This document shows positions 232 through 63,076 of a stretch of DNA of 63,076 bases, piece by piece (positions within the stretch are counted from its first letter, which is position 1; each line of letters starts with the position of its first letter). The notes under the pieces are model-generated. The model saw nothing but the letters and a program-made list of their open reading frames with translations, searched no databases and was not told where the DNA came from. The stretch is from assembly GCA_050230475.1 (NCBI GenBank), contig JBFLGF010000078.1:1-63076 (forward strand), written 5' to 3'. The position numbers and the translations under genes were made by a program. The stretch comes from Ancylonema sp. Its lineage: Eukaryota.

Positions 232-586
232 GGTAGTCTGGTCGTTGGAACAGGGCATCGGGTTGGCCATTGCTGGACCCCTTGCGGTAGATGATGGTGT
301 AGTCGTAGGCAGCTAAAGTGGTTGTCCACTTGGCATGGCGACGAGAGGTCGTCCTGACTGTGCTAAAGTACTCCAATTTTTAATGATTTGTGAAGACACA
401 AACAAGGTGAGCAGCTCCCTCCTCGTACACCCTCCATTGTTTGAATGCTTCCACAACAACTAAAAGCTCTATATCGTAGATGGGATAGTTTAGCTCAGCA
501 GGTGTAAACCTCCAAGAGTAGAAACAGATGGGGCGTAGCAGGGGAGGGCTGCGAAAGGATACAACCCAGTGCAAAGTCGGATGCAT
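232..586 (-). mobile_element. Ty3/gypsy RNase H relic (degenerate)
   Basis: Translation FYSWRFTPAELNYPIYDIELLVVVEAFKQWRVY...VFTNH* continues past the stop as KLEYF...RRHAKW...YDYTIIYRKGSSNGQPDAL, matching the gypsy RNase H C-terminal motif set. Confidence 0.85.
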
Positions 587-11800: not shown

Positions 11801-12031
11801 GTTCAATCGAACAGCGCCAAGAAGTACTGGCTGCGTAGCGCAGAATTTTCATTGGCAACAAATGGCATCTATTTGTCGACCTCAGGCGTCGGGTCAGAGA
11901 CGCCGCCGTCGGCTCTGCCTTTCAACCAGATACCAACAGGGGGAGCCGTGGATTTGGGTAGGTGCGACTGGACGATGGTGGCCCCTGAAACGCTTCTCTT
12001 CGTCATTCTGGGGTTCATGATGTTGGTTTAG
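8817..12031 (+). CDS. Glycoside hydrolase family 26, secreted, probable GPI/C-terminal membrane anchor
   Basis: Six phase-consistent GT-AG exons: 8817-9086, 9793-9903, 10256-10446, 10766-10964, 11299-11503, 11640-12031. Signal peptide MTRISVAICFLVFTALTHVAG. GH26 motifs IRFGHEMNGPWYAWGQQP, LWSPN, FWPGDEYVDWVGLS and KPMAISETG. Hydrophobic tail LLFVILGFMMLV. Confidence 0.85.
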
Positions 12032-15000: not shown

Positions 15001-15036
15001 TTCGCCTGATAGCACCTGGGGGGATGGAAAAAACAA
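10037..15036. repeat. Tandem ~2.5-kb duplication (10037-12560 / 12561-15036)
   Basis: The second unit restarts at TGCTTACGTG. The 3' ~1 kb appears identical at offset 2476, while the 5' ~1.5 kb is diverged with indels. Confidence 0.9.
12763..14507 (+). pseudogene. Partial GH26 copy (exons 3-6 only; allele or paralogue)
   Basis: LRFGHEMNGNWYAWGQQP, DTNNDGLVDMHDDPY and AISETG are intact, but the signal-peptide exon and exon 2 are absent from this unit. Confidence 0.7.
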
Positions 15037-16914: not shown

Positions 16915-17514
16915 AGATTAACACTCGACCTTCATGTGATACCGGTAAACATGATGTGTTGCTTTTCTGATGAGATGATTGTCAATTGATAATTGGCTCC
17001 GACAATTGTTTCGCGACAGCGTCAGACAGATACGCACCGATGCGCAGCGCTCCTGCTTTTCCTTATCGTGTGGTCTCGTGGGGATGTGGACCTGACAACT
17101 TGACATCCACACAGCAAGTATGCGAAGTTTTTATGAGAGGTTGCGCACTAGTTGCGGGGATTGGGAAGTGTTGGGAAGGTAACCGGCATCGTTATACGCT
17201 CGTGAAGTGAGTCAAAGGTTGCTGAGCTGGACATTACAGCATGATGAGAATCCAGGTCGGATTCACATGTCAGATATCAGTTGCCACGTCGGAGCAGATC
17301 TTGCACCAAAATTGCGCTCCTATCCCCGCAAATTTTGCTTGAAGCTTATGCAGGGCTCTGTAAACTATTACCACTGGAGCCGTATCCTGCAGTCCACCGA
17401 TCTCCAGGCCATTCAGCTGTTTGAAGCCTACAGAGAACAATTTGCATCTCTACGACTGAATCGTTTTACATTTGTGCTGTATCTGCGAAGGTGTATCTGG
17501 CAAACGCCTGTGCG

Positions 17515-19129
17515 ATGGCAATTTCTGCAGCGCTGGCATCTCATGCCGCTGCCATTAATCTCACTGCATGTTCTACGCGCGAAGCGTCAGGACATCTGGC
17601 TCAACGTCCCCGGCACATAATTCTCATTTCTAAGTTTAGAGGTAAATTTTCAGGTTAATAAAGATGTGGCTTAATCTTTACAGTATCCGAAAGCACACAG
17701 TACTGCTTTTGGTAGCACAGCTGCAGCATATTTGAAGTGCTGCTCCTTAGGTCTCTTAACATTGGCCCGGTGTAATCTTAGTTCTACGCTTGTTTTTGTG
17801 GGAAATCATAGGAGTAGCCACTTACAGATTTGACTGGAGCACTGTATCATACCTAGTACTTATTGTTAAAGAGTCGCTGTAAAAAGCACATCTCTAGCCT
17901 GGCATTCGTGGGCTCCGTCTGTTGACTTTCATCGACATCTGACGAAGGACGAGTGTATCCTACGTCCCAATATCATGTGTCATGGAATTACGAATTGCTT
18001 TTTTGGGGTGCCAACATAATGTGTAGCCTCGTCTTTGCCAGCTCGTATCGTCGCTTCTGTTGCAGTCAAACTGTGATCAGCCTTCAGAAGTATTCAGTTC
18101 ACACATGCTTTGTCACATAATTCGTGTTTGAGCTCCCTCAGGTCACTGGAGACAACAATCTGCAGCTGCTGCTCTCGGGGCTGCACCTGTGGCTGCCAGG
18201 TGGAGCGCTTGGTTCAAGTTTGGGAGCAATGGCATGGATTCCACTGGAGCTGGGATTTATGGGAGCCAGACCAGGGACGATTTTGACCGAGATGACGTTG
18301 AGCAGGTGAGAATAGAGGCAGGAGAAGTTTACAAAGTATTCCTGCCCATGCACCTGTATGTCCTATCAGCAAATCCACAGGAAAGCTTGTAAAAGGTTAT
18401 GGTTTGTACACTGGCACAAATACACGTCCACGGATACAGCTGCTCATGCAATTGCAGAATGTACAAAGTTACCGACATATCCATTTCTGTAGTGTATTCC
18501 AGATTATTTCTCCATCACAAAACACAAATCACAAAATTCAATATACTCTTGTGTAGGTTTCTTAGCCAAACGTTTGAAGTGCACAAATTTGCCTCAAATA
18601 GTAAAACTAAATATTGAATTGCAAAGTTGGTGTCAGGCTTGGGGTTTAATAGGTGGGCAATATAGTCCTAAGGTCCAAGGTGGAGAGATTGGGAGGTGCT
18701 TCTGAATGACGCGCAACGCTGCAGGCGTGTGCACGATCTCACTCAGATGCAGAAATGAACCGCACCAGCCACGGTCACCTTAGAAGGGGTTACAATTCAC
18801 CACAGGACAACTCCTCTTTTGGGCACAATTGGCGTCTGATCATTGACTCGCTCTGTTTGCCACCTCTGCAGTACTTCAACTACATGGGAATGCTAGCAAC
18901 AAACGGGTCGTATGACGCCATGGAAGCTCTGCTCGAAACCGGCATTCCACCAGTGGACCTGCTCCTTCTCATGGCTGCCTCGGAGGGGGATCGGCCGAAG
19001 ATCGAGGAGCTCCTTCGAGCAGGTGCGGTTGCAGATGTGAAGGATGATGAGGGACGGACAGCGGCAGATCGAGCAGCCAATGAGGACATCAAGAGATTGA
19101 TATTGGGGGGGGCAAAGGCGTTGGCTTGA
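17515..19129 (+). CDS. LTD: LHCP translocation defect protein (ankyrin-repeat, plastid)
   Basis: Exons 17515-17641, 18142-18305 and 18872-19129 join in frame. WFKFGSNGMD..GAGIYGSQTRDDFDRDDVEQ|YFNYMGMLA..GSYDAMEALL..DLLLLMAASEGDRPKIEELLRAGA. Confidence 0.92.
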
Positions 19130-19775
19130 CACCCTTATCGAGTAGGCAGCAAGGCAGCAAGGTAGCAAGGGAGGGCATCATGTCGGGAGTTGGGAGTTGC
19201 CAACAATCACTCACATCTCGAAAGTCGATGATGCTGCATACTCTATTTTGCTGGCATGCACTCTTAAATTGTTGTGATACAGGGATTTAGACACAATGGT
19301 GCATAGAAGGTATCTACAGTACCTTGAGTTCTTATACGTTCATCAGTCCTATCGAGATGACTTTTACAATTTGTTGTACTACCAGTATTTATCCTTCAAT
19401 TCAATACCAAGGTGCAGAATTCTGTACCTCGGTATGATCGATGGTTGGTGATCGGTGAGAACCAGCAAATTCTCACACACTAAAAGTTGGTATCAACTGC
19501 GTGAATCCTATAAGGAAAGGAAACAATGGAACAACGGCAATTGAAAGCACAAGATTGACTCATTGTATGGTTTTGTTACCACAATTTAAACCATCACATC
19601 CAAACAATGAATATGATCAGGTTTTCATTGAATTGCCCAGATCTGTGCTGTGGCGTTCGCAATTACCCACGCTAGTCGTGTGATCACAACACACAACACA
19701 CAAAAACAATGCTAAATCAAGGACACCTTCCCGACCATTATCTGAGATGGTTGCTTGTTGGCTGCTCTATCACGA

Positions 19776-20618
19776 CTATGTCATCATGGCAATGGTTTTG
19801 CTAGCGTGTGGGAATTCCTTCAACAGGCCCTCGCTTGTAGCCATCTCAAAGTCTGGAAACTCAAATCCTGGGGCAACAGTACATCCCACAAGCGAGTAAC
19901 TTGTGTCAGGATTCCGCAGTTCCGATTTTTTAGTCTCCCCATCCTCTTCCCAGTCCCGAGTGGAATACGATCCAAACCAGTTATGAGGTGGCACCACATA
20001 CTGCATCGTCTGGCCGGCGGCTATGACTTGGCCAAGTATAGTGCGCTTTACCTCCCCATTGGGCAGAATTTCAAGCACCTAAGAGAAAATCAAAGGTAAG
20101 GGGGAAAAAGTAAGGAGATGAATTCCAAACTCTGATAAGGCAAAATTCATGAAAAGCAGTGGAACGAAATGGCCTTTCCTCAACAACTTCATATTCAACA
20201 CCCCTGGCTCAGTGCCCTTCACGTTCCCCCTCACTAGAGGATAAGGCATTTCGATCCCTCCTTACAGTCAAGGGGTCCCCCAGGTAGAAGTGCCACACTT
20301 CGGCTTGGGGTATGCGGTGGAGCTTAGACAAGCTGCCACCTGGCACCAGGAGGTAGATTGCAGTGCTCACAGCACTGTGGCTCGCCTTGTCTGAAAGGGC
20401 AGGGAAGAGGCAGAAAGCATTTACATCATGCACGCAGATGTACAGGCAGAGATGGCAGATATGGTGTGAGGGGATGGGAGTTTACAGCCGCTTGGGAGAG
20501 TTTCCAAGGGCAATCCACAAGAGGTGTCTCGAAGGGTCTCGGTAAAAAATCCGCCCTCAGGGTGGGGCTGCAGGTTAAGGTGTGACACGAGGTCGGAGAT
20601 GGATGGAGGGGGGGCCAT
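19776..20618 (-). CDS. Cupin_5 / DUF985 family protein
   Basis: Three segments separated by introns: LNLQPHPEGGFFTET; AVSTAIYLL..SKLHRIPQAEVWHFYLGDPL; QYVVPPHNWFGS..SLVGCTVAPGFEFPDFE. Confidence 0.9.
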
Positions 20619-20692
20619 AGAGGAACTGAAAAGAGGAAGCAAGGGGTGGAGACTGTGAGAAGTCTGATTTGTTCCTCAGCTTGGGGTGGAAG

Positions 20693-21888
20693 ACGGGCGA
20701 AGTTCCAAATGTCAGGGTTGGGAGGTGAGAGAAGGGGCCAGTACGACTATTGCCGCAATTAAATACGATAGCGGTTCTTTATATGAGCATCAAATATATG
20801 GCTTTCGCTGCCTCCAGAATCCGCTGATCAGCAAGACACTGGATCCAAATCATTCGTTACCCCTCGAACCGTCTCCACTAAGGATAACGATGTCATTTAA
20901 GCAGGCTGCACTACATTCCACTTTCCGTCGTCTATTATTTTATCGGATCTCCCTTCGACTTGTTGTCTTGTTTGGCCCACATAATGCCAAGCAAAATACG
21001 CTACGTGGCGGTGTTACAGGCATATCCTCTTTTTTCACATATTGACAGATGTGTGCCGCTGTGGTGGCCACTTCCCCTCGGTTCATAACGTTCATTAATG
21101 GACACAAATTTCGGTATTAACCTCCATTCCGGGTTTATGGAATCAGCTGCATTCCAACAAGCCGATATTAGGGTCACGGACTTACGAAAAATCTCGAATT
21201 AGAAGCAAATGTGGTCCTTGTACGCAAATCTTGTCCAACGCTGTCCTTCCTCAGATGGCATTCAGCTGCTTTTGCCTATCAGGGCCAGCCTGCGCAAACT
21301 TGCCGTGCGACTGTGGTGAGTGGACAGCCTAGGACTGAAAGCCGTGGCATCGTTCTCGATCCCCAGCCCGAGCTGGCCGTCNACGGGCGAAGTTCCAAAT
21401 GTCAGGGTTGGGAGGTGAGAGAAGGGGCCAGTACGACTATTGCCGCAATTAAATACGATAGCGGTTCTTTATATGAGCATCAAATATATGGCTTTCGCTG
21501 CCTCCAGAATCCGCTGATCAGCAAGACACTGGATCCAAATCATTCGTTACCCCTCGAACCGTCTCCACTAAGGATAACGATGTCATTTAAGCAGGCTGCA
21601 CTACATTCCACTTTCCGTCGTCTATTATTTTATCGGATCTCCCTTCGACTTGTTGTCTTGTTTGGCCCACATAATGCCAAGCAAAATACGCTACGTGGCG
21701 GTGTTACAGGCATATCCTCTTTTTTCACATATTGACAGATGTGTGCCGCTGTGGTGGCCACTTCCCCTCGGTTCATAACGTTCATTAATGGACACAAATT
21801 TCGGTATTAACCTCCATTCCGGGTTTATGGAATCAGCTGCATTCCAACAAGCCGATATTAGGGTCACGGACTTACGAAAAATCTCGAA
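20693..21888. repeat. 506-bp direct duplication (20693-21198 / 21383-21888)
   Basis: Copies appear identical and the second is bounded by N at 21382 and 21889. Likely a scaffolding artefact. Confidence 0.85.
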
Positions 21889-24330: not shown

Positions 24331-25122
24331 TGAATCGCATAGGATACATGAAAGGACAGAATGTATCTACCAAAAAATTGTTGCTATCGTAACAAGTACT
24401 TCCTAGACACACAAGCTTCGGACGTGGATGTCTACTTTACCGCACATTGTATGGGAAACGTATGTATTCCTACAACTGCTCAGTAACGTGTTGTCCGCAA
24501 GCTTGGCGGCAAGTTCTAGCGAGTATGGTGCCGTGAACGGTGGAGCAATTGTAACGTTCATTACCAACTAAGGCCTTCGGTCGTCAATCGAAACTAATAA
24601 TGAGAAATACGTCTGTCCGGACACGTGTCAATGGAAACGTCATTGCGAAAAACCCACACATGTGTCAAACATGGCTAAAGAACGAAAATGCCGCACCGGC
24701 CTTATTCTACCGTATACGCACATTTCACCGTATAAGCTCATTTCACCATATAGGCATATTTATCGTTTTAGGCTCATTCACTCGTTTAGGCACAATATAT
24801 CCTCATATAGGCACACGATCGATTATTGTCCGACATGGCGTTGCACGTCTGAGAGGGACACGACAGCACGACATGGGGAAAATCCCAGAAGACTTTCTTT
24901 AGTCGGTGAATTGTATGCAATCTGAATGAAATTGTATTTTTTTCGGAGCGAATCAAAACTGCGCGCGCGTATCTCTCACGTTCGGATACGCTCAATGGAC
25001 AGAGGAAACAGTAGTCTCGTGCAACACTACGGAGTCCCAGGTCAACATAGAAGCCGTCGCCCTGCTGATCTCAGCTTCACCCCGCGACCATTTGGATTTA
25101 GGGCCTCTTGTGCGTCAGCGCC

Positions 25123-44701: not shown

Positions 44702-45295
44702 CAATAAACAATAGTCATTGGCACATCTTTGGTACACGAGAAACGTGTGCTCTACAACAAGTTATGCTTGTAGCAGGTTAATTGCGTTACAGGACACATT
44801 TGCCAAAGAGCTCTGAGGCAGATATGCCTGGAACGAGGGAATCTAAATATTTTTCTTTCAGAGTCCGCAAACTTCGTTTGCCATGTCGCTGAACTTTTGT
44901 CAACATGAAATATTGTCTTATTTGCTGATTGGAGTGTAATGATACTTGAAATGATATCATATTCACTCTATCGTGCTATCTAGAATCGCCTACACACACA
45001 AGTGTTATGCTTCACTATGAACGAATACAAGCGCACGTGCCACCGCGCCAACAAACTCATCGACTCGTGTCTCCCACACGTGTGGTCAAATATGTCACGT
45101 CAGCAAGTTTTATGACGTCATAACTCGTTACAGGCACAAAATCTGGGTGTGCCTTTTTGTATAATGTAATGTGCCTGTAATGTGGTGTCGCCTATAACGA
45201 AGACGATTTTGGCGGGGGAAAGTTGGTACACGCGATTTTGGTGCCTATAACGTGAATGTGCCTATAACGAGTATGCCCATAACGAGTATTTACTG
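44702..45295. mobile_element. pogo-like MITE related to 7932-8412 (second copy ~48635-49257)
   Basis: TA-flanked ends CAATAAACAATAGTCATTGGCAC ... TGCCCATAACGAGTATTTACTG. Internal 45190-45245 is the reverse complement of ~7995-8050. Confidence 0.65.
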
Positions 45296-45533
45296 TACAT
45301 GCCAATAACGAGTGTTTACTGAACATGCTGCAAGAGCTCTGTAAATCAGGAAATTACTTACACGCCTGTCCGATCGATCATGCAGAAGCTTGCGACGCCT
45401 TGTAGCCCCCGACCAGGACCTTCTGTCTGATGTGACCGTTCCAGTACGATTATCTATGTTCAGGAAAACCGCATTCTCACACGGACGCTCTTGCCATTCC
45501 GTACCTTTATGATCATTTCTTCAAAAAATAGTC

Positions 45534-46831
45534 ATGGCTTTCGTCGCGGATTTGTGCCCTTGCAGCTTCATACGAGGAGACATAAAGTTTCCCAGTAATG
45601 CAGCTAAAAAATCAAGCTCTGTGTTCAGGATATTCGAAGGCATGTTCCACTAACATTCGCGCAATGGCGACAGGAGCTTCAACTTCTATAAAGGTTCGCC
45701 TCTCAAGCAGCTGCCTTTCTTAACAACAGTATGCCCACCTGAGGATGGCCTGTAATTGTGCGAATACTGGAGCTCGTGAGTGCAGGTTGTGGTGAATGGT
45801 GCTGGGACTTCTTTGGGTCGGGCAGCCATTCGAGCCATATCAGCTGCCCGGGGAATGGAAGTCGCAGCGGCTGTGGATAGCAGCGCGACTCTTGCTGGAC
45901 AGGATGCTGGCGAGGTTCGTTAAGGACCCCGTTATACGATACTGAACCCTAGCCCTGCTCTTGGGTGTGTCAGAAGCGGAAATCTGAGAATACGAGGCTG
46001 TGATGTCTAATGCGGCATTCGGTCTTTTATTTGAATCGCGACATGCACTGAGATCCTAACTGTGGACCTGGGTGTAGGGTGGGTAGATGGCAGGTTTGGA
46101 GGAACCCCTGGAGGTGCCCGTGGTGTCCGACCTGCTGTTGGTGCTCGGGTCGCTGGCGCAGACTAGCGGCCCTGCAGTGGTGGCCGACCTGCGGCCCACA
46201 GCAGACGATGCGTACGAAAACGTCCGCCAGGCCACCGCATTTGGCCTGCGGAGCGTGGTTGGAGAGGCTACCCTCCCCCCCGACTACCTCCAGAAGCTCT
46301 CTGTCTTCTGTGACAAGGCGTCCATGGGCTGCGTGGTGGCGCCCAGTCTGAGCGTTGGGGCCAGCCTGTTGCAGCAGTCTGCGGCTTCGGCGGCCTTCTT
46401 CTACTCAACTGTTGACCTGGTGGAGTACAGGAGCCCTGAGCACCACCCACACCCCCCATCCCCAGCGGCACTGGCAGTGGCAGAGGCACTGGCAGGGCTG
46501 GGACGGAGGTTCAAGGACGACGGGAAGGCAGCGGAGGTAGGAGCCCAAGTGGTGGAGCTGGAGGAGGGAGTGCGGTGGCAGGGTCTCCCCCATCCCTGCC
46601 CAGGAGTCACAAGTCTAGAAGTCGTGTTCCGCGCAACAGGGCAGAGGCTGCGGCTGTGCCACGAGGTGGAGAATGAGGAGGCGCTGATGCCAGGTCTGCT
46701 GCTGGCGCTGAGGAGGGTGACCAGACTGAAGGTGAGGGAAAATGAGAGGGGAGAGGTGGGGTGGAGGTTGACAATGGCTGTGGGGGTGGAGGGTCCAGAG
46801 CTTGGTGTACGGCCTGCATAAGATCTTGTGA
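45534..46831 (+). CDS. CRR1: Dihydrodipicolinate reductase-like CRR1, copy 1
   Basis: VVVNGAG..GRAAI..GQDAGE|MAGLEEPLEVPVVSDL..YENVRQATAFG..FCDKASMGCVVAPSLSVG..LMPGLLLALRRVTRLK|SLVYGLHKIL*. A 1-nt insertion near 45631 shifts the transit-peptide frame relative to copy 2. Confidence 0.85.
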
Positions 46832-47386
46832 TCTTGTGATCTCGCGATCTTGCGATCTTGCGATCTTGCTACCAAGGAGGCACAGAGCGTTGAGCGAATG
46901 TGGTGGGATTTTGACGTAATTAAGCAACGGCAATAAACCAAGCCCCGATTGAATGACAACATCACTGTGGTTGGTTTCATGAATGAGTGCCAAACGTCCA
47001 ATCGTTGCTCTGTATGTCTGCTAAATCGTTCGGGATCCGACTGCATCCAAATGAAACCTTTGAAACCCTTACAAAATTGGTTGGAACGAAATACGTTGAG
47101 CACCTTCGTTATGTACGGCCAAAGTAAGGAAAGGAATAGTGGACTTCATTCACAGGCTCAGTTTTCCAATCTGTACAGTGCAGAGTGTACACTGTATGGG
47201 AGGGATAGGACCCCCCATCATCTCAATTGCACCACCATGGCTGCTTGTATTTTTTTGTATTTACATCCCCAAACCCCTAAAACGTAAGTAATTGCAGTGC
47301 GGAGCAGCGGTCAGAATATCAGTAGGCACGTCTCTCGACCATTTGCTTCCCAGACGCGAAAAATTTCGAAAAAAACCGGTGATACA

Positions 47387-48500
47387 CTAGCTAGCTGGTT
47401 TGTTTCCCTCGCGCGGTACGCCCACCCCTTCGTACAGAGCCGAGTAGTCCACGTCGCCGTACCCGCGGTCCAGTGTCTCCTTCACCGCTGCCAGCAGCCC
47501 CTGCAGCTCGAGAAGCAGTGGTTGTGAAACCGCGAGGTGGGGGGGTGGGGTGGGTGCTTCACCTGCTGGGGGGCGGTGATGAGTCCGGCCGCTGCAGCCT
47601 CGTCCATAAACAGAGCGCAGTCTTTCAAGAGATGGCGTGTGTGGAAATTGGCGTTGCTGTAGTCATGGGCGATCATTTTGGGTAGCTTTTTGTCAAACTG
47701 TTTGGCGTGCATGGCGCTGCCCCTTAGCACGGCCATGAACGTGTTCACGTCCACGCCGTTGGCCACCACCACCCCCAGGGAGGCACTGAAGGCTGCCTGC
47801 TCCATGGCCAGAAGGTTGTTCAGGGACAGCTTCAACTGCCGCCCCACACCCCACCCCTCAGTCCACACTGCCCTCAGCTGTTCCTCCTGTGCCACCGTGC
47901 TCATGCGCTCACAGCAGCAGCTGCGCCCACAGGGCCAACATGAATCCGCTGCTCGCCCAACGCAGCCAGCACGCGATCCACAGCATGGCGCACCCATCAT
48001 GATTTCTGCAGCCTCCCCTTGCGATGGACCTGCGCACATCACACATAGGAGACGGGAGCACGTTAAGCGAGGGTATTGGAAAGGAGGTGGAGGTGGAGGT
48101 GGATCATGTGTGGCGCTCGCACCGGGCAATGTACACAGCCCCCTCCTTTGCACACATAGCACTAAGGATGCGGCTCTGGTTCGCGCTGATGGTACCCATC
48201 TGCACCACTGTCTTCCCCCTCAGCCGCACCCTGGGGGGGGAAGAGTACGGACACGATGGCAGGATGATCTGACAGCAGGAGGAGCACACGGTGCTGTCAC
48301 ACTTAAGCCGCTGGATGGTGGGAGCCAGGGCAGCCTCCTGCTGCCGCTCCTGGCTGCGAGTCCAGACTTGCACGGCAAACCCTTGCGAGTGGAGGCGGAC
48401 AGCAATGGATTTTCCTAATAGGCCTAGGCCCAGGACTGACACTGACACGGGCGCACCTCCTCTGCCAGACCACCACCCACGGTTCATACGGGATACGGTC
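47387..48500 (-). pseudogene. Beta-hydroxyacid dehydrogenase (3-hydroxyisobutyrate/6PGD-like), copy 1, frameshifted and 5'-truncated
   Basis: VSVLGLGLLGKSIA.RL..WTRS, VVQMGTIS, LKLSLNNLLA..FDKKLPKM..YSNANFHTRHLLKD..DYSALY. The middle is garbled and the first exon is missing. Confidence 0.75.
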
Positions 48501-49469
48501 AAAGACCTATCCTACTCGTTATTCCGATAGGGTTGGTCGAAGACGGTTCATACGGGATACGGTCAAAGACTTCAAATCTTACTCTGGGACCATATCCGTT
48601 ATCCATTAAGGACCACTGAGGTTCAGAGNAGAATTACGATAAATACTAGTCATTGGCACATCTTTGGTACACGAGAAACGTGTGCCTACAACATGGTTAT
48701 GTTTGTAGCAGGTTAATTGCGTTACAGACACATTTGCCAAAGGGCTCGGGGCAGAGGGAACGAGGGAATCTAAATATTTTGTTTTCGGAGTTTGCAAACT
48801 TCGTTTGCCATGTCGCCATACTTTTGTCAACAAAAACTTTTGTCTTATTTGCTGATTGGAGTGTAATGATACTTGAAATGATATCATATTCACCCGGTCG
48901 TGCTATCTAGAATCGCCTACACACACATGTTATGCACTGTTTGAACGAATACAAGCGCACGTGCCACCGCGCTAACAAACTCATCACTCGTGTCTCCCAC
49001 ACGTGTGGTCAAATATGTCATGTCAGCAAGCTTTATAGCGTCATTATTCGTTACAGGCACAAAATCGCCCTCTGGGTGTGCCTGTAATGTGGTGTATAAT
49101 GTAATGTGCCTGTAATGTATATCGCCTATAACGAAGACGATTTCCTGTGTCCAAGGGGGAATGTTGGGACACGCGATTCTGATGCCTACAAAGTGAATGG
49201 GCCTATAACAAGTATGCCCATAACGAGTGTTTACGAGCGTGTAACGAGTGTTTACTGAACATGCTGCAGGAGCTAGGTACTGCAGGAAATTCCTTACATT
49301 TCTGTCTCCTCGATCATGCAGAAGCTTGCGACACCTTGTAGCTTCCGACCAGGACCTTCTGTCTGATGTGACCGTTCCAGTACGATTATCTATGTCCAGG
49401 GAAACCGCATTCTCACACGGACGCTCTTGCCATTCCGTACCTTTATGATCATTTCTTAAAAAAATAGTC

Positions 49470-50755
49470 ATGGCTTTCGTCGCGGATTTGTGCCCTTGCA
49501 GCTTCATACGAGGAGACATAAAGTTTCCCAGTAATGCAGCTAAAAAATCAAGCTCTGTGTTCAGGAGTTCGAAGGCATGTTCCACTAACATTCGCGCAAT
49601 GGCGACAGGAGCTTCAACTTCTATAAAGGTTCGCCTCTCAAGCAGCTGCCTTTCTTAACAACAGTATGAGGATGGCCTGTAATTGTGCGAATACTGGAGC
49701 TCGTGAGTGCAGGTTGTGGTGAATGGTGCCGGGACGCCTTTGGGTCGGGCAGCCATTCGAGCCATATCAGCTGCCCGCGGAATGGAAGTTGCAGCGGCTG
49801 TGGATAGCAGCGCGACTCTAGCTGGACAGGATGCTGGCGAGGTTCGTTAAGCACCCCGTTATAAGATACTGAACCCTAGCCCTGCTCCTGGGTGTGTCAG
49901 AAGTGGAAATCTGAAGATAGGTTGTGTCGTATAATGCAGCATCCGGTCTTTCACTTGAACCGTACCATGCACGGAGATCCTAACTGTGGACCTGAATGTA
50001 GGGTGGGTAGATGGCAGGTTTGGAGGAACCCCTGGAGGTGCCCGTGGTGTCCGACTTGCTGTTGGTGCTCGGGTCGCTGGCACAGACTAGCGGCGCTGCA
50101 GTGGTGGCTGACCTGCGGCCCTCAGCGGACGATGCGTACGAAAACGTCCGCCAGGCGACCGCGTTTGGTCTGCGGAGCGTAGTGGGGGAGGCCACCCTGT
50201 CCCCTGACTACCTCCAGAAGCTCTCTGTCTTCTGTGACAAGGCGTCCATGGGCTGCGTAGTGGCGCCCAGTCTGAGCGTTGGGGCCAGCCTGCTGCAGCA
50301 GTCTGCGGCTGCAGCGGCCTTCTTCTACTCGACTGTCGACCTGGTGGAGTACCGGAGCCCCGAGCAGCACGCACACCCCCCGTCCCCAGCGGCACTAGCA
50401 GTGGCGGAGGCGCTGGCAGGGCTGGGAAGGAGGTTCAAGGACGACGGGTGGGCAGCGGAGGCAGGGGCCCTGGGGGCGGAGCTGGAGGAGTGAGTGCGGT
50501 GGCAGGGCGTCCCCCACCCCCGCCCGGGAGCCACCAGTTTGGAAGTGGTGTTCCGCGCAGCGGGGCAGAGGTTGCGGCTGTGCCACGAGGTGGAGAGTGA
50601 GGAGGCGCTGATGCCGGGGCTGCTGCTGGCGCTGAGGAGGGTGACCAGACTGAAGGTGAGGGAGAGTGGGAGGGGAGAGGTGGGGTGGAGGTTGACAATG
50701 GCTGTGGGGGTGGAGGGTGCAGGGCTTGGTGTACGGCCTGCATAAGATCTTGTGA
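49470..50755 (+). pseudogene. CRR1: CRR1 copy 2 with premature stop
   Basis: Intact first exon (MAFVADLC..STSIK), but GGA in copy 1 is TGA at 50491-50493. Confidence 0.8.
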
Positions 50756-51233
50756 TCTTGTGATCTTGCTACCAAGACACAGGGCGTTGAGTGAATTTGA
50801 TGCAGTATAGCCAACCCCGATTGGATGACGATAAGTGCTAGTGTGAGTGCAAAACGTCCAATCGTTTCTCTGCTAAATCGTTCGGATCCGACTGCATCCA
50901 AATGAAACCTTTAAACCCTTACAAAATTGGTTGCAACGAAATACGTTGGGCACCTTCGTTATGTACGGCCAAAGGAAGGAAAGGAATAGTGGACTCCATT
51001 CACAGGCTCAGTTTTCCAATCTGTACAACACAGAGTGTACACTGTAGGGGAGGGATGGACCCTCCCATCATCTCAATTGCACCACCATGGCTGCCTGTAT
51101 TTTTTTGTATTTACATCCCCCAAACCCTAATACGTAAGTAATTGCAGTGCGGAGCAGCGGTCAGAATATCAGGAGGCACTTCTCGACCGATGGGTCCCAG
51201 ACGCGCAAAATTTGGGAATAAAAGGGTGATACA

Positions 51234-53120
51234 CTAGCTAGCTGGTTTGTGGCCCTCGCGCGGTACGCCCACCCCTTCGTACAGAGCGGAGTAGTCCACG
51301 TTGCCGTACCCGCGGTCCAGTGTCTCCTTCACCGCTGCCAGCAGCCCCTGCAGGTCGAGAGGCAGTGGTTGTGAAACCTGGTGGTGGGGGGGTGGGGTGG
51401 GTGCCTCACCTGCTGGGGGGCGGTGATGAGTCCGGCCGCTGCCGCCTCGTCCATAAACAGAGCGCAGTCCTTCAAGAGATGGCGGGTGTGGAAATTGGCG
51501 TTGCTGTAGTCATGGGCGATCATTTTGGGTAGTTTTTTGTCAAACTGTTTGGCGTGCATGGCGCTGCCCCTTAGCACGGCCATGAACGTGTTCACGTCCA
51601 CCCCGTTGGCCACCGCCACCCCCAGGGAGGCACTGAAGGCCGCCTGCTCCATGGCCAGAAGGTTGTTCAGGGACAGCTTCAACTGCCGCCCCACACCCCA
51701 CCCCTCAGTCCACACCGCCCCTCTTGTGCCACCGTGCTCATGCGCTCACAGCAGCAGCTGCGCCCACAGGGCCAACATGAATCCGCTGCTCGCCCAACGC
51801 AGCCAGCACGCGATCCACATCGCCCCCCTCCTCGAACGGAGTGAATTGCCTGCGAGTAGGGTCGGTTGGTCGGTTCCTCTTTAACTGTCCCTCACACCTA
51901 GTTCTGTGTGTAATACACCTAAAGACGGTCTCAAGGATGTGCCTGCAGGTCATTGTAGGGGCCATGGCTGGCGGGGGGAGGAGGTGGGGGTACCCGCGGG
52001 TGGTCACCGCTGCAGCAGCCCCTGCGGGTTCGGCAGTGGTTGTGCAGCGTGCACCTGCTGGGCAGAGGAGATGAGAAAGGCCGCTGCCGCCTCGAGAACA
52101 GAGCGCAGAAGAGAAGGAGGTGAGGAAATAGTCATGGGGATCATTTTGGGAGGGTCAACTGTTTGGCTGCGGCGGCCCCTTAGCACGGTGAACGTGACTC
52201 CACCCCGCGAGGGAGCGGCCGCCTGGTTCGTGCAGGTATCGGAGCTTGAGGACCCCACCCCTCAGTCCACACCGCCCCTCTTCTCTCGTGCTTTGCGCTC
52301 ACAGGCAGCTGCGCCCTCAGGGCCATGAATCCGCTGCTCCAACTCAGCCAGCACGCGAGCACATCGCCCCCCTCCTCTGGCACGGCGGAGGCGCCCACAT
52401 GATTTGGAGGAACCCCCTGCATTGCGACCCTTGGACCTGCACCATGGACACGGAGGCACGTTAAGCGAGGATGTGGGAGGGGAATGTGTGCGCTTCACCG
52501 GGCTCTCGATGTACACAGCCCCCTCCGCTGCACACATCGCATTGAGGGTGCGCTCTGGTTCGCGCTGATGTACCCATCTCACCACCGTCTTCCCCTCTAG
52601 CCGCTGTGTGGCCTGGGGGGGGAAGGTACGGACACAATCGCAGGGACAGCAGCACCACGGTGCGTCACCCATTGCGGCCGCTGCCGATGGTGTTACCCTC
52701 AGGCCCGCCAGGGCAGCCTCCTGCTGCCGCTCCTGGCTGCGAGTCCAGACTTGTACGGCGAACCCTTGCGAGTGGAGGCGAAGAGCGATGGATTTTCCTA
52801 ATATGCCTAGGCCCAGGACTGACACTGACACGGGCGCACCTCCGCTGCCAGACAACCACCCACGGTTCATTCGGGATACGGTCAAAACGGAGGTTCAGAA
52901 AGGTGCACCTCTCGGAGGCAGACTCCATTCGAGGCGTTATCGTGCTCCGAAGCTTTCGCCTTCCGGAGTGTTGTTTGCGATTGACAAGCGCGTGCCTATC
53001 TGACAAGCGTCCAAACCCTTCAACTGTGACGAGACTCACGCTTGACGGAGCCTTCCACAATCCGAGTCTAGAGCACTCTGTGGCGATGAATAAAGGCTGA
53101 GCTGACACGACAATAGCCAT
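51234..53120 (-). CDS. Beta-hydroxyacid dehydrogenase copy 2 with putative transit peptide (centre garbled)
   Basis: ATG 53120 (MAIVVSAQPLF.., Ser/Arg-rich); GLGILG Rossmann motif; YIESPV; same C-terminal domain as copy 1. 51840-52330 is a degraded internal duplicate. Confidence 0.7.
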
Positions 53121-56236: not shown

Positions 56237-56284
56237 GTCCAGTCTCCAGTCTGGACTGGACCCAGTCCGGACTGGAGACTGGAC
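56237..56284. repeat. 23-bp-arm inverted repeat (hairpin) built of CCAGTC/GACTGG units
   Basis: GTCCAGTCTCCAGTCTGGACTGG-AC-CCAGTCCGGACTGGAGACTGGAC, one mismatch. Confidence 0.9.
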
Positions 56285-56429
56285 AGTCCACTTCCAGTCT
56301 GGTGAAATGGAGTTAATTAGACTGGGGTTTTGGGATGGTAATCTGGGATTTTGAGATACCGTGGTGACTGGAAATCATCGCGCGTGAAATAATACAATTA
56401 TTTACCGTACTAATCCTTTATCAATCCTG

Positions 56430-56717
56430 CATCCCATGATTCTGTGTGTGAGGCGCTCTACCATGTCATCCGTGAGTCGAAACAGCACGCGCAGCGGGAG
56501 CGCACCGGTTTCCTCCCTTCATCGGCTCTTGGAGGGCGTGGCGGCCGTGTCGATATCGTGATTTCGGATGCTGCGGCGGGGCACACGTTGGTTGACGTTG
56601 TTGTTGCTGACCCTATACGCCGAGATCTAGTGGAGCGCGCCGCGAGACAGTGCCTCGTCGCGGCTACGGATGCGGAGCGGAGGAAGGAGACCCACTATAA
56701 GGATCGCGCAGCTGGGA
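56430..56717 (+). mobile_element. Non-LTR retrotransposon restriction-like endonuclease fragment (CRE/R2-type)
   Basis: HDSVCEAL..GGRVDIVI..GHTLVDVVVADP..AATDAERRKETHY matches the RLE R.D..D..AE..K..Y pattern. The similarity breaks at TGTCGT (56718). Confidence 0.75.
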
Positions 56718-59700
56718 TGTCGTACAGCATTCGATCGTGTGCCTATATAGTGAATATAGCGCGCTATAGACGAATGTCCCTATACACTAGTGCAATAGTG
56801 TAATAGGGTACGAACAGTAGCACAGATACAACGAGCATGAACCGGGTGACTAGTAACTAGTAAAGCAACGGTTAGCTAACTAGAACCTAGAGTGAATCTA
56901 GTCACGCCGAGGCTCCGCCAAAGACGCTGTGCGTTTCACCTGCCGCCCAGGAAAGATATCGGAAGCCATGAAACTGTCATACTAAGCATGGCGCTAGTAA
57001 ACAGTACGGAATCACTACAAGTTAGATCATGGCGGAATCCGGATAATCAATCTTATCAGTAGTCACGATAGAAACAAAGTACTTGCAATACTTTGTAACG
57101 TCGGATATGGTAAAGTAGGCGTGGCAGAGTATTACGAGGGTGATGTGATCTAGTCAAAGCAGACATAGCAATGCATGATCCTGAAACGGCAGTATTACTA
57201 TATACGACAATACATGTAGATACGGGGCCGGGAATGCATATGTGTAGATGTCGGTGCTAGACGTCCAGCGGAACAGCCAATGACAGTGTTTGTCGATTGA
57301 GCTGAGCTGAGGCATACAAACCTCAGGGAGTTTGCATTCGGACCTATTCGGTTTGAATCGCTTCGGGAAACTTATAAGCAATTGACCATAACCTTTTGTC
57401 TTATGCGATTCGGCTGACATGTGCATGATGTCTTGAATATATGTTGTGCATGTGAATTACCTGACTATTTTATTACGCATCGGACACGGCACGTCCAGAC
57501 TCAGAGCATCGTCTTGCCACGAGTAGATTGACCGAATTACGTTTAATTTTTTTTTAAATGAATTCGCTGGCTGCTCTGTACGAGGGAGATGGAGGACGTC
57601 AGCAGGAGATATTCATCCAGGACTTACAGGCGGGGTGGAAAATCGAGCAAAGCGCAGCTTCGACCCATCTGAGAAGAGGGACGTCCCAGTATGACTACCT
57701 AGAGAAATCTCGCAGCACTATCGTACAAGGACAGGCTAGGGTAGCCATGACCACTTACCTGACGAAATAGGACCACACGCTTCCATCCAACCCCAACCAA
57801 GCAAAGGAAATTCGGAGGGAGGTTGATCGGCAGATCTGGCGACAATACTACAAGGAGATCGCAGCGTATGACATGCGGCTGGTCCATCAACCAAACAGCA
57901 ACAAGGCTCCACCCAAACAGCCAGATGAGCTATCACCGGCCATCCCAGAACCCCCAGATCTGATAGACTTTATCGCATCGATCCAGATCTGCGTTTGCCA
58001 CGGTGTCAGCAGGGTTCTTTGATCATCTGAATGCATTCAGAGGTACCCCAACTGAAAACCTGATGCAGTTCATAGACAGATTTGATGAGGTTTCCCAGCC
58101 ATTGCTGGCAAACAATCATACCACGTCCCGCAACTTGGCCTTCATATTGAAGTGCCACATCCCTGGTCACCTTCGGAGGGCGGTATGCGCCCAGATGGAC
58201 AATCTGGATCGGAAACGGTACAAGGCAAGGAGCCCGGGGTCACCAAAGAGGAGCTGATCACGCTCATGCGGGAGGAAGAGGCATACCTTTGCAACCGGGA
58301 AACCGAGCAGCGAGCGGCGGGAGTGGAGCCAGAGGTTCAGACCGAATAGGCCAGAGGCCAGGGAGACAGACGCAACCCTGCCACCGCGTGTCTACCCAAA
58401 ATTCAGGAGCGATGGGAAGTTGCAAGAAGAAAGGAGGAACATCAAGGACAGGTTGGGGAATGCAAATGAACCGGTACAAGTGCCGAGGGCAGACCTCAGA
58501 ATCTGTGACAAGTGCAAGCAGGTTGGGCACATCCAGAGAATGTGCCCGAACAAGGCAGTTCCTTCAGCACCGACCTTGCCACCGCCACCGTTGGCGAGAG
58601 GCCTCTCCGAGCATCAAACAAAGGGCGCTGTTTGCAAGGGATGCAACAAGCCAGGTCACATGGAGGCCCAGTGTTGGTCTGCGCACCCGGAGCTACGGCC
58701 CAAGGACAATAGGACGAGGATTGGAGCGATGGTTGCGGCCAGGAAGCAGCACAAGACACACTCGCAACAGAGTCCAGGTTACATATACCAGGGTGGGGCG
58801 CACATGGCGAGAACCTACGTGAGAACAACACCGACACCCGTGGCATCACAAGGCCAGCGGAGATCGAGTAGAGAGTCAGTCCCCACACAGGATGCACTCG
58901 ACAACGTTTCACAAAGGCCAGCCAAGCGAGTACAATTCACGGTGGAAACCATGCCAGTGGCTACGGGAGAGCCAGACGCAGCAGAGGCGGCAGATCCCTT
59001 GACAACGCCGCCCACGTCATCAACGCCAGCAGTGCAGCAGAGTCAACCGGGAGAACCCACACCTGTGGAGGAGTCAGTGGTTGCTACACCATCCGCTGAC
59101 GTCAACAACACCCCGGGAGGAGTGCCCAAGAAGTACGCGTACAAGGAGAGGCTACCGCAGTCTTTTCCGCATGGACTTCCACCTTCCAGCTTGGAGCGTG
59201 GAGCCACAGACCTGCGCCATCCACCCACCAACCTTTTCCCAGAACCACCTCTGGGGGAAGAGGAGCGCGGAGAACAGGAGACCCCCTTGGAACAAGTGGG
59301 GAGACTCCAATCAGCACTTCGCAACATGCAGGAGCTGGTGGGAGAGGTAGCAGCAAGTGTTTGGAGGCGCGCCACTGATCAAGAGAGGGTGCCAACCAAC
59401 CACAGCAGCCATGTTTGAGGGGCTGGTCCCAGCAGTTCCAGAGGAGGACGCAGAGCCGGTGCACCTTACGCTTGCCTACCTGGAAACAGACAGCCGCATT
59501 CTGGACTTGAACGGCTTCGTGCCGAGGGAGAGCATCATCGACACAGGCGCATCCAAGGTGTTTGTGAGCCGCAAGTTTGCGACTGAAATGGGAATCACCA
59601 AGAAGCAGCTCAAGAGGGGCATGGAGTTCATGACCGCCAGCGGGAAGATCGAAAGACCGGTGGGTATCACAATCAACCCCGTGGAGTTCTACACCTGGCG

Positions 59701-62700
59701 AGAGGAACTGATCATCAGATGATTCTGCGGCTACACATCACAGTGGTGGATACCACCCACAGCCTACGACGTCCTACTCGGCATGGAGTTTGTGAAGGCG
59801 GCCAACGGGAACTATGACGCATATTTCGAGCGGTTCACGTACCGTTACCCGTGTGTCAACGGAGAGTTGCAGCCGTACTCCATTCCAGCGCCTTGCAGCC
59901 AGCACCCGGAAACCACCAGTCGTGGCTTACGCCTGCATGGAGGGACTCATTACCTGTGCAGAGGAGCTGCTGGATGTGGCAGACTCGGACGACTTGGGTG
60001 AGGAGGAGGTCGACTACCATCAGTCCCCGTGCCAGAGAGCGGCAGCCCAGCTCATGGCGCTGTCGGGAGCGATCGAGAAGGTGGAAACAAAGAGAGTCAG
60101 GTTGGCAACAAGGAGGCGCGACATGGGACGACGGGATAATGCCGTCGCCATCCTTGCCGCGGTGCACAAGACCACCATCACACCGTTCTAGCCAGCGATG
60201 AAGTGGGTAAACGAGATTCTACCTGAAGAGGCCACACCCATCGACACCACCATCCGAAAGTTAAGTGCACAATCCCTGACAGAGGGTGTGCATGCAGTGG
60301 AGTTCTTTGGTGGCATTGGACTGGGGGTAGTTCGGATGCTGTGTGCCGCGAACATCAAAATCAAATGCTACACCTACGTTGACATCGACCCCAAATCCAG
60401 ACAGATAGCAGCCTCAGTTCTGAAAGCACTTCAATTAGAGTATCCACACCTCCTCCCGGACTCTGCCATTCAATTCGACAGGAAATTACCGTAGGACATC
60501 AGCCAGGTGTCTGCGAGAGACTTGGATGACTTAATAAATGCCAATGGGCCAGTAGACTTCCTAGGGGGGTCATGGGAATGTCAAAGTGTGAGCAGGGCTG
60601 GAAAGCAGCAAGGAGAGAAGGACCCGCGCTTTCAGTACTTCAACGACCTGGTGCGCGTCATCAAATACCTGCAAAGACACTAGGAGAATCCACCTGTGTA
60701 CATGCTGGAAAACACCTACCCTGGAGAATCGCCACCTCGCTTGGTGCAGCTGGCGGGATGGCGCGTCGAGTCCTACATAGGAGTGCCGGCGTTGCTGGAT
60801 GCAGCCGACATGGGCAGCGCCTGCCATCGATTGCGCTTCTACTGGGTGAACTTCATGGAAGCAGCAACGTTGCAGATCGCCGCCCCCAAGGGAATGCTGC
60901 CTGCACCCGAGCTCAACACCCTCCTGCATCCTCACCACGTTCCCACACGACCAGGTCACACTGATCGACCCCCGTTTGCTCAACTCAACAAGCTGGGAGG
61001 ACCACGTCTGTGCATGCCAACAATTGTCTCCTTCCTTAACTCAAACGCATTTCGCTTCAAAGACAATGGAGATGCGGGGGAGGGGATGGTGTGGAACAAG
61101 CAGTCTGCCGTGTGGGAGGAGCTAGACGTTCTCGAAAAGGAGGTGCTGATGGGATACAGGAGGGGAGACACATTTACCCCTGGGGTGAAAGGCGAGGAGA
61201 TCGCCGTTCGACTGGGGAGAGCTCTGGATGGGAGTGTCATGCCATGGTTGGGTGCATTCGTGCATGCCTGCCAGGCATAGGATTCTTACCCCACCCAGAG
61301 CGAGGAAGCCCAGTTCAAATCTGGGGGGGGGGGCATTCACCCAGCATTCGCCGCGCTGGAGTACGTGGCAGGAGCAGATCAAATGGTGACTTCCGATCCA
61401 TCCCTGTTCCTGTCACCGGGGGACAAGAAGAAGAAAGCAGCTGCACAGGTCGTCACTGCGCTTTTGGCATCAGAACCCAGGGGAGCAACCTCACATACCT
61501 CTCGGGTTTCACCACCTGAGGGAGAGGGGGGGAGAAGGAAATATCCCCCTCAGAGAGACAAAACCCACAAGTTCAACCTCGGCACCAGTCTCCAGGAGGC
61601 GGACCAGATTCGAGTCCTCAACATGCTCGAGGACAACATATGGACCGCTTTGCGTTCTCACTAGAGGATATCAACCCAGAGGAGTTTACAGGAGAGCCCA
61701 TGGAGATCAACCTGAACTCGGAGGAGTCGGTGTTTCGGCCGCCACACAAGCTTGGGCAGGTGGAATGGGACTTTGTGGAGGCGCAGTGCCTCAAGCTGGA
61801 GAAGCTGGGATTCATCCAGAGGGCGAAACAATCCAAGTTACGCGTCAGCCACGGTGGTGGTCCGGAAGAAGGACGAGGAGGGGAATTACACTGACTTCCG
61901 TCAGTGCGGAGACTACAGACCACTCAATGTGGAGACTCCCTGGACCGCTACCCCTTACCTGGCATAGAGGACATTTTTAATCAGATGGGGGGGGCGACCA
62001 TCTTCTCGAAGCTGGACTTGCGGAGCGGGTACCACCAGATGCCAGTACGGAAGGAGGACAGGTGTAAGACAGCGTGGGGGGCCAATAGGATTCTCTGGGA
62101 GTGGCTGGTGGTGCCTTTTTTGGGCTGAAAAACGTGTCGCCCTACTTTCAGCGAAGGATGGACTACATTCTACGGGACCTGCCGTTCTGCCGCTGCTACA
62201 TAGACGACATCGTAATTTGGAGCAGAAATCCGGTGGAGCACATGGACCACATCGAGCAGGTTTTCAGGAGGTTGCGGGAGGCAGGCTTGAAAGTTCACCC
62301 CGGGAAATGCGTCTTCGGGGCGGATAGCATTGACTTCTTGGGGCATCGGATATCAGCGGGAAGGGAAAGCTGGAGCCGCAGACCGACAAGCTGTCGGCGG
62401 TAAGAGACTTACCAGCCCCCACTGATCTTTCGTTTCGGGGCTGAGGGCAGCGTTAGGCCTTTTCTCATATTACTGCAAGTTCGTGGAGCACTTCAGCTCC
62501 ATCGCCTTCCCGCTCAACTCGTTGCTGAAGAAGGACCGCAAGTGGGAGTGGGGAGAGACTCAAGAAAAGGCCTTCTTGGAGTTAAAAAAACAGCTCTGTA
62601 GTGCAGCAGTGCTAAGGCTACCTGACCCCTACCGGCCCTTCATCCTCACCACAGATTGGTCGCAGCGGGGAATGGGGGGGATTCTAAGTCAGGGAGGGGA

Positions 62701-62933: not shown

Positions 62934-63076
62934 GTATTACGGCGCAAATGGGAATGAAGTGCCGTAGCAATTTAAATGCAAATTCACGATACACTTAAAG
63001 GGAAATGATAAATGTAAATGTAAAAGTATATGAGATTTAGGAAGCGAAGCAAATGAGCTTCGCAACTTACATAAGT

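What the first reader, a model, noticed from the sequence alone, without database searches (positions are those of the whole stretch)
60198..61280. Ty3/gypsy retrotransposon carrying its own C5 DNA methyltransferase between protease and RT
Seen: reading through TAG stops gives a single frame (59814-61664) with the C5-MTase motifs in canonical order. These are FFGGIG (60303-60320), VDID, DI, GGSWECQ (Cys 60579-60581), ENT (60708), HRLRFYW, E..MGY and LGRA. The domain lies inside pol, downstream of the DTGAS protease and directly upstream of the RT. The ORF track splits it and omits motif IV. Established (from memory): DNMT-bearing retrotransposons are rare, reported in dinoflagellates and in gypsy elements of the charophyte Klebsormidium (de Mendoza et al. 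2018, Nat Commun). Inference: this is a member or relative of that family, possibly in another streptophyte lineage. The enzyme could methylate new cDNA copies or seed host methylation at insertion sites.
Basis: partly seen in the sequence, partly recalled or inferred. Interest (0 to 1): 0.9.

Follow-up and report, generated by a model that had tools for sequence, protein, structure and literature searches.

The report
Retrotransposon methyltransferase before a leaky stop
This is a dead copy of an algal jumping gene that carries its own DNMT3-like DNA-methylating enzyme just before a conserved stop codon that is likely read through, which would make the enzyme as abundant as the capsid protein and far more abundant than the reverse transcriptase.

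Summary
Confirmed: a Ty3/gypsy element carries a C5-cytosine methyltransferase (PF00145, E 1e-8; a relative's model folds like DNMT3A, Z 27.8) between protease and RT. The copy is dead and cut before integrase. The host is a green alga, probably a glacier zygnematophyte.

Correction: the domain is not inside pol. It ends a Gag–protease–DNMT ORF. The TAG at 61278 is no lesion: 53 of 65 homologues end there, and other copies show only TAG or TGA. It has a type III readthrough context (UAG-GAU, stem from +12). Distant relatives have one in-frame stop at the same boundary, followed by CAR-YY in 20 of 22 loci; in L023 it is the only stop in 2,417 codons. Readthrough is inferred (about 80%), not measured. 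It would make the DNMT as abundant as Gag.

The kind is known (Klebsormidium Gypsy-Dnmt3, 2018), and this scan has met moss versions before. My searches found no report of the readthrough site, of a second architecture (RT–RH–DNMT–IN–PHD), or of the family's size (1,892 clusters matched, ordinary DNMTs probably among the weakest). Methyltransferase activity and target are untested. Verdict: new variant of a known kind, interest 0.55.

The parts
56414..56717 (+). Very high-copy repeat ORF interrupted by the element; resembles the C-terminal endonuclease of a non-LTR element (label recalled, no database name)
   Evidence: Depth peak and loose ends at 56717; no Pfam hit; Atlas look-alikes unnamed
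56718..57520 (+). 5' terminal repeat-like region starting TGTCGT; right edge approximate
   Evidence: Junction; contig depth about 14,000-21,000 against 2,500-3,700 in the first four bins of gag in run X1; relative L027 also starts TGTC
57558..59418 (+). gag, broken by a stop and frame switches; CCHC zinc knuckle near 58501-58551
   Evidence: tblastn to P0001/P0002/P0006; PF00098 E 6.5e-5
59507..59900 (+). Aspartic protease (DTGAS 59540-59554), frameshifted
   Evidence: PF13975 E 9.3e-9
60282..61277 (+). DNMT3-like C5-cytosine methyltransferase domain, motifs I-X in canonical order; premature stops at 60492 and 60681 (a third at 60189 lies just upstream)
   Evidence: PF00145; 52-56% identity to six Gag-PR-DNMT proteins; profile and fold nearest DNMT3A
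61278..61280 (+). Conserved ORF1 stop (TAG; TGA in about a tenth of depth in runs X1/X2), likely readthrough codon
61281..61329 (+). Predicted readthrough cassette: 8-nt variable spacer, then a stem with arms 61289-61299 and 61320-61329
   Evidence: Fold (z about -1.4, not significant); conserved arms, variable spacer and loop, net-zero indels, one A-U to U-A swap
61383..61385 (+). In-frame ATG 34 codons after the stop; basis of the re-initiation rival
   Evidence: same place in loose ends of runs X3 and X4
61560..62400 (+). Reverse transcriptase (YIDD 62197-62208); starts in the DNMT frame, then several frameshifts
   Evidence: PF00078; alignment to P0109
62549..62936 (+). RNase H, cut off at 62936
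   Evidence: PF17917 E 7e-29
62937..63076 (.). Unrelated very high-copy repeat that truncates the element; no integrase or 3' repeat in the window
   Evidence: Depth jump and joints to 62935 from other places; no integrase hit

Best explanation
This is a dead, truncated copy of a Gypsy retrotransposon whose first ORF is Gag-protease-DNMT3-like methyltransferase, ended by a conserved stop that is likely read through by a minority of ribosomes to make RT, RNase H and (in relatives) integrase-PHD, so the methyltransferase would be made in capsid-protein amounts and likely methylates the element's own new cDNA. Steps. Shown: domain order, DNMT3-like fold, invariant catalytic residues, purifying selection in relatives, the conserved in-frame stop and its context (about 0.95). 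Inferred: programmed readthrough (about 0.8). Inferred: the short product co-assembles with Gag, and the protease frees the DNMT inside the particle (about 0.6). Inferred: it adds 5mC de novo, probably at CG, to the cDNA before integration, so new copies arrive marked like host DNA (about 0.45).
For: Six long proteins share Gag-PR-DNMT; five end where the window's TAG is and the sixth is cut short. 53 of 65 proteins reaching the domain's end stop within 6 residues of it (redundant set). In four runs (2 samples) the only listed variant of the codon is TGA; spacer and loop vary while the stem arms hold. UAG-GAU is a listed type III context, and the MuLV structure also starts at +12 (PMC13517186 passages). 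In distant relatives 22 of 22 tabulated loci have a stop between DNMT and RT in the RT frame, 11 of them exactly one. 20 of 22 are followed by CAR-YY, against 8 of 1,824 background stop triplets. L023: 1,369 codons, UAG-CAG-UUA, then 1,047 codons of RT-RH-IN-PHD whose first Met is codon 117. L058 has UGA-CGG, the type II context. Catalytic Cys 149/149, Glu 150/150, motif VIII Arg 149/150 and 148/149. dN/dS 0.10-0.20 in four diverged pairs. The related SymbioDIRS Dnmt3 methylates CG de novo in yeast (PMC5890265 section 10).
Against: No RNA, ribosome or protein data. The stem is no more stable than shuffles (z -1.0 to -1.5), and a lesion stop used as control folds about as well (z -1.2). The covariation is one pair in one sample. 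16 of the 22 loci are one family, so there are about five independent lineages. 7 of 29 loci were dropped as frameshifted or decayed, and 4 of those 7 do not show the motif. Five relatives run from DNMT into RT with no stop (P0109, P0195, P0243, P0300, P0307), so the stop is not obligatory. An in-frame ATG is conserved in the window's clade. The K. nitens domain showed no activity in yeast (called inconclusive there). Motif IV is EC rather than PC in 90 of 149 domains. Gag-level amounts exceed what one cDNA needs, which fits a trans role as well.
Confidence: 0.7

Rival explanations
1. The stop is a true stop, and RT-RH-IN is made separately, by re-initiation at a downstream AUG, by splicing (as in Ogre elements) or from a subgenomic RNA. 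The DNMT would still be at Gag level.
For: In-frame ATG at 61383, kept at the same distance in other copies. ATG three codons after the stop in 15 of the 16 loci of the L001 family. Ogre elements split GAG-PROT from RT-RH-INT by a partly spliced intron (PMC6317226 passage).
Against: L008, L018, L023, L025 and L035 lack that ATG, and L023's first Met lies inside the RT core. The ORFs abut in one frame with no spacer, unlike Ogre's 274-bp average gap. Canonical readthrough contexts of three classes sit exactly at the stop. The 40 codons after the stop show dN/dS 0.32-0.38.
Confidence: 0.15
2. Readthrough is real, but the abundant DNMT acts mainly in trans in the nucleus, on older copies, insertion sites or host chromatin, either damping the family or reshaping host methylation.
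For: Gag-level dose is far more than one cDNA needs. The integrase of relatives ends in a PHD chromatin reader. PMC5890265 (discussion) raises host-benefit and insertion-site roles.
Against: Fusion to Gag predicts packaging. A sister lineage keeps the domain between RNase H and integrase, at Pol level and next to the cDNA. CpG depletion of the element (o/e 0.64) is no different from host exons (0.62-0.70).
Confidence: 0.25
3. The domain is kept as a DNA- or RNA-binding module and does not transfer methyl groups.
For: EC in place of PC in 90 of 149 domains. No activity of the K. nitens domain in yeast.
Against: Cys, Glu and both Arg are nearly invariant, and EC and PC alternate across the tree. 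The set was selected by likeness to the profile, which favours conservation.
Confidence: 0.12
4. The host reads TAG as an amino acid, or the DNMT is a chance insertion into this copy.
For: All four stops in the frame are TAG.
Against: Host genes use the standard code. 1,200-aa homologues are open under the standard code and all carry the domain at the same place.
Confidence: 0.01

Closest known systems
KnitGypsy-Dnmt3 of Klebsormidium nitens (de Mendoza et al. 2018, PMC5890265; seen: abstract, passages, sections 10, 11, 15, 20, supplementary table, passages of the peer-review file; Fig. 4c and the main supplement not seen)
   Same: Gypsy element of a streptophyte alga with an intronless, unpermuted Dnmt3-type domain under purifying selection. 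The A-coding-B-A-B repeat layout described there is found in relative L027.
   Different: There the DNMT is stated to share one ORF with RT and RNase H. Here a conserved stop separates them. The paper's text has no mention of readthrough, gag or protease. The host lineage is probably different. Direct relationship not tested.
Gammaretrovirus (MuLV) gag-pol readthrough and Beier-Grimm types I-III (PMC4178896 abstract; PMC3159437 and PMC13517186 passages)
   Same: In-frame UAG, G at +4, 8-nt spacer, structure from +12 (window). UAG-CAR-YYA (L018, L023, L025, L035) and UGA-CGG (L058) in relatives.
   Different: The stop lies after protease and DNMT, not between gag and protease. A simple stem is predicted, not a pseudoknot. 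Nothing measured.
Ogre elements (PMC6317226 passages)
   Same: Gypsy elements with GAG-PROT split from RT-RH-INT.
   Different: Ogre uses a spliced intron. That survey's main text has no mention of a methyltransferase or PHD domain.
EpiLTRs of Euglena and Cymbomonas (bioRxiv 10.64898/2026.05.21.726589; abstract, passages, section 8)
   Same: LTR elements with a C5 DNMT and a chromatin reader.
   Different: Their DNMT is sister to DNMT4 and comes with DAM and a chromodomain. The authors call it distinct from streptophyte Gypsy-DNMT3.
SymbioDIRS-Dnmt3 (PMC5890265)
   Same: Dnmt3-type domain in a retrotransposon; shown active on CG.
   Different: DIRS element with tyrosine recombinase; relatives here have a DDE integrase.

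Membership tests
KnitGypsy-Dnmt3 / streptophyte Gypsy-DNMT3 | DNMT3-type, unpermuted, intronless C5 methyltransferase domain | tested here: met
   Profile: DNMT3A 84.6 bits, DRM2 54, HhaI 42. Model of P0029, pLDDT 95.8: DNMT3A Z 27.8, rmsd 2.7, 275 aligned; best bacterial enzyme Z 23.9. Motifs I-X in order.
KnitGypsy-Dnmt3 / streptophyte Gypsy-DNMT3 | Gypsy order RT-RNase H-DDE integrase | tested here: inconclusive
   Window has RT-RH and is cut at 62936. Relatives of the same architecture have RT-RH-IN-PHD (L023).
KnitGypsy-Dnmt3 / streptophyte Gypsy-DNMT3 | DNMT in the same ORF as RT and RNase H | tested here: not met
   Same frame but separated by a conserved stop. Met in five other relatives and in the RT-RH-DNMT-IN lineage.
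KnitGypsy-Dnmt3 / streptophyte Gypsy-DNMT3 | Terminal repeats A-coding-B-A-B | tested here: inconclusive
   Only the 5' end is in the window. Found in L027, with TG..CA ends and a 4-bp CATA duplication; 1 complete case among 17 loci self-compared.
KnitGypsy-Dnmt3 / streptophyte Gypsy-DNMT3 | Purifying selection on the DNMT | tested here: met
   dN/dS 0.12, 0.10, 0.20, 0.20 in four diverged pairs of relatives; 0.75 between two decayed sister copies. Not measured on the window's own clade.
KnitGypsy-Dnmt3 / streptophyte Gypsy-DNMT3 | Groups with K. nitens element sequences in DNMT and RT trees | not testable with these tools
   No sequence labelled K. nitens was returned; the paper's data are on FigShare.
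Type III programmed readthrough | UAG-G context (UAGGGV, UAGGUA, UAGGAU) | tested here: met
   Window UAG-GAU; the commonest variant letters in other copies give UAG-GGA.
Type III programmed readthrough | Stimulatory structure after an 8-nt spacer | tested here: inconclusive
   Stem predicted from +12 with conserved arms and one compensatory swap, but z only about -1.4.
Type III programmed readthrough | Measured readthrough product | not testable with these tools
   Needs a reporter, ribosome profiling or proteomics.
EpiLTR | DNMT4-sister DNMT with DAM and chromodomain | tested here: not met
   DNMT3-like; no DAM or chromodomain Pfam hit in both ORFs of L023 or in 30 long relatives.
DIRS (SymbioDIRS-Dnmt3) | Tyrosine recombinase | tested here: not met
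   Relatives carry rve integrase with an H2C2 zinc finger; the window itself is cut before this region.

The most novel reading that the evidence does not exclude
A large green-lineage clade of PHD-integrase Gypsy elements packages a DNMT3-like enzyme as a capsid-stoichiometric component that methylates the cDNA inside the particle. The clade sets the enzyme's dose by its side of the protease|RT recoding site: Gag level when before it, Pol level when between RNase H and integrase. It has swapped among all three viral classes of readthrough signal at that one site.
Probability: 0.35. Interest if true: 0.8.

Novelty: new variant of a known kind. Interest (0 to 1): 0.55.

Why it matters
The open question since 2018 is what a retrotransposon does with a DNMT. 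The published argument for action in cis rests on the DNMT sharing an ORF with RT. Here it lies on the Gag side of a likely leaky stop, which predicts a much higher dose and makes cis versus trans action testable. The family offers many naturally intact domains in two architectures for assay. It also gives a natural series of type I, II and III readthrough signals at one site in a cellular mobile element. If the host assignment holds, Gypsy-DNMT3 elements extend to the algal sister group of land plants.

Tried and rejected
No whole genome is held, so intact copies, paired repeats and integrase could not be sought in the host. Scans for DNA of the window's own clade found nothing in JGI metagenomes (73 pattern matches, none confirmed) or viral contigs (94, none), so DNA evidence for this clade rests on laid contigs. 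No RNA holder was listed. The first fold, from 7 sequences, was poor (pLDDT 48) and was not used. The single window sequence ranked bacterial enzymes first in the PDB, weakly (E about 1e-3); deeper profiles reversed this. The post-stop linker of the window does not align with L023's. No tRNA gene is in the window, and no primer-binding site was identified by eye. CpG and CHG ratios were uninformative. The wide structural search was not run. The UBA1 tree places the host outside land plants (98/95) but in an unresolved group that includes Chlorella. Trees have no outgroup, so the direction of the DNMT's move is unknown. The RT tree used 24 of the after-RH rows (every second one) and 12 after-PR rows. 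Literature searches found no report of the readthrough site or of zygnematophyte elements; the library lacks most subscription journals. Gao et al. 2003 on recoding signals in LTR retrotransposons was not held (title only). Leaky gag-pol stops are known in a few other LTR elements (PMC3441728 passages). The unseen Fig. 4c and main supplement of PMC5890265 bear on which architecture K. nitens has. PMC10952607 and PMC13519894 (passages) held nothing on these elements.

Full report
Observation. Read with X at the stops, the frame hits PF00145 (E 1.1e-8, above cut-off); protease, RT, RNase H and a zinc knuckle flank it in Gypsy order. The element starts at 56718 with TGTCGT inside another high-copy repeat and is cut at 62936 by a third repeat, so integrase and the 3' end are absent. 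The copy is dead: it has premature stops and many frame switches. The host uses the standard code.

Host. No genome is held. Contigs of 'organism A' and of a glacier metagenome cover both the element and its flank; one glacier contig matches 485 flank bases with 4 differences and 9 gap positions. The UBA1 gene falls outside land plants (98/95), nearest a protein whose id format I recall as Spirogloea, in an unresolved group that also holds Chlorella. A glacier zygnematophyte such as Ancylonema is my inference (about 0.7); that Ancylonema is a glacier zygnematophyte comes from reference titles.

The domain. Six long proteins, 52-56% identical over the domain, carry protease-DNMT, four of them with the Gag zinc knuckle too. 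So the domain is a fixed part of the family. A profile matched 1,892 clusters at 50% identity (242 at E<=1e-30; I saw only the best 150, and ordinary DNMTs are probably among the weakest). A 71-sequence profile ranks DNMT3A (84.6 bits) over DRM2 (54) and HhaI (42). The model of family member P0029 (pLDDT 95.8) matches DNMT3A at Z 27.8, rmsd 2.7 over 275 residues, ahead of bacterial enzymes at Z 23.9 or less. Across 150 domains the catalytic Cys (149/149), Glu (150/150) and both Arg (149/150, 148/149) are kept. The residue before Cys is Glu in 90 and Pro in 47, intermixed on the tree. dN/dS is 0.10-0.20 in four diverged pairs of relatives. Activity is likely but untested; the K. nitens domain gave an inconclusive negative in yeast.

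The stop at 61278. Of 65 proteins reaching the domain's end, 53 end within 6 residues of this stop, 2 end earlier and 10 run on (redundant set). In contigs of other copies the only listed change of the codon is to TGA; the following G has no listed variant. The next seven bases and the loop vary, the C-rich and G-rich arms hold, indels cancel, and one lineage swaps an A-U pair to U-A (4 runs, 2 samples; 4 variant rows not shown). The N-terminal part of RT follows in the same frame. UAG-GAU is a listed type III readthrough context, and the MuLV structure also begins at +12. Against this, the stem is not more stable than shuffles, and an in-frame ATG 34 codons on is also conserved.

Independent support comes from distant relatives (31-45% identical in the DNMT). 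Of 58 loci, 29 hold the DNMT end and a downstream RT. I tabulated 22 and dropped 6 frameshifted and 1 decayed; 3 of these 7 still show the motif. All 22 have a stop between the domains in the RT frame, 11 exactly one. 20 are followed by CAR-YY (4 by full CAR-YYA), one by TAG-CCA and one is UGA-CGG; background is 8 of 1,824. Sixteen loci are one family, so about five lineages count. L023 has one stop in 2,417 codons, UAG-CAG-UUA, and the first Met after it is codon 117, inside RT, which re-initiation cannot explain. UAG-CAR-YYA and UGA-CGG are the type I and II motifs. Five relatives have no stop, including P0109, the window's nearest RT neighbour (100/98), so the stop comes and goes.

Mechanism. 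Most ribosomes would stop after the DNMT, giving Gag-PR-DNMT; a minority would read through to RT-RH-IN-PHD, as in MuLV gag-pol but with the site moved past protease. The DNMT would therefore be at capsid stoichiometry, be packaged and be freed by the protease. I think it most likely methylates the new cDNA (about 0.45); action in trans (0.25) and binding only (0.12) remain open. A sister lineage holds the same domain between RNase H and integrase, at Pol level, so the module has moved at least once; the direction is unknown.

Comparison. It works like KnitGypsy-Dnmt3, and relative L027 has the same odd A-coding-B-A-B ends with a DDE integrase. I do not file it as a member: one stated feature, a shared ORF with RT, is not met, and no K. 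nitens sequence could be placed. It is not an EpiLTR or a DIRS element. Earlier notes of this scan report moss versions and pointed me to the EpiLTR preprint; in the lines shown they do not mention readthrough, and they are not evidence.

Verdict. A real feature and a new variant of a known kind. The DNMT-bearing Gypsy itself is published. What my searches did not find in print is the likely readthrough site that puts the enzyme on the Gag side, the two architectures and the breadth of the family. Interest 0.55.

Noticed in passing
P0164, P0199, P0204 and others; L032, L033, L037-L042: A second architecture, RT-RH-DNMT-integrase-PHD (one with Tudor, two with G-patch). Among 141 new proteins, 68 show it at least in part, 14 have the DNMT after protease or before RT, 1 is mixed and 58 are too short to tell. 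The two architectures fall on either side of one RT branch (97/88).
   Followed up: partly
L058:210: Stop right after the DNMT in a UGA-CGG (type II) context; no significant fold downstream (z +0.2). Single locus.
   Followed up: partly
L041:4281-4354: In the second architecture the putative Gag-protease ORF (no Pfam hit) overlaps the RT ORF in another frame, so a break at protease|RT may be common to both (one element).
   Followed up: no
L027:5991-15205: Complete element with A-coding-B-A-B repeats, TG..CA ends, a 4-bp target duplication and a DDE integrase. How such ends are reverse-transcribed is unexplained.
   Followed up: partly
window 24796-24836 (-): 42 nt, 83% like the element's 5' terminus, with no coding remnant next to it.
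   Followed up: no
window 44830-48503 and 48757-52886: Tandem duplication of about 3.9 kb (82-100% in pieces) with DapB-like and 3-hydroxyisobutyrate-dehydrogenase-like genes.
   Followed up: no
window 10173-14007; 20693-21682: A 2.5-kb tandem duplication (90-98%), and a 100% identical direct repeat 690 nt apart.
   Followed up: no
window 239-496 (-); 1466-1726; 56237-56284: RNase H remnant of another Gypsy element, an 8-nt tandem array, and a 48-nt palindrome upstream of the element.
   Followed up: no
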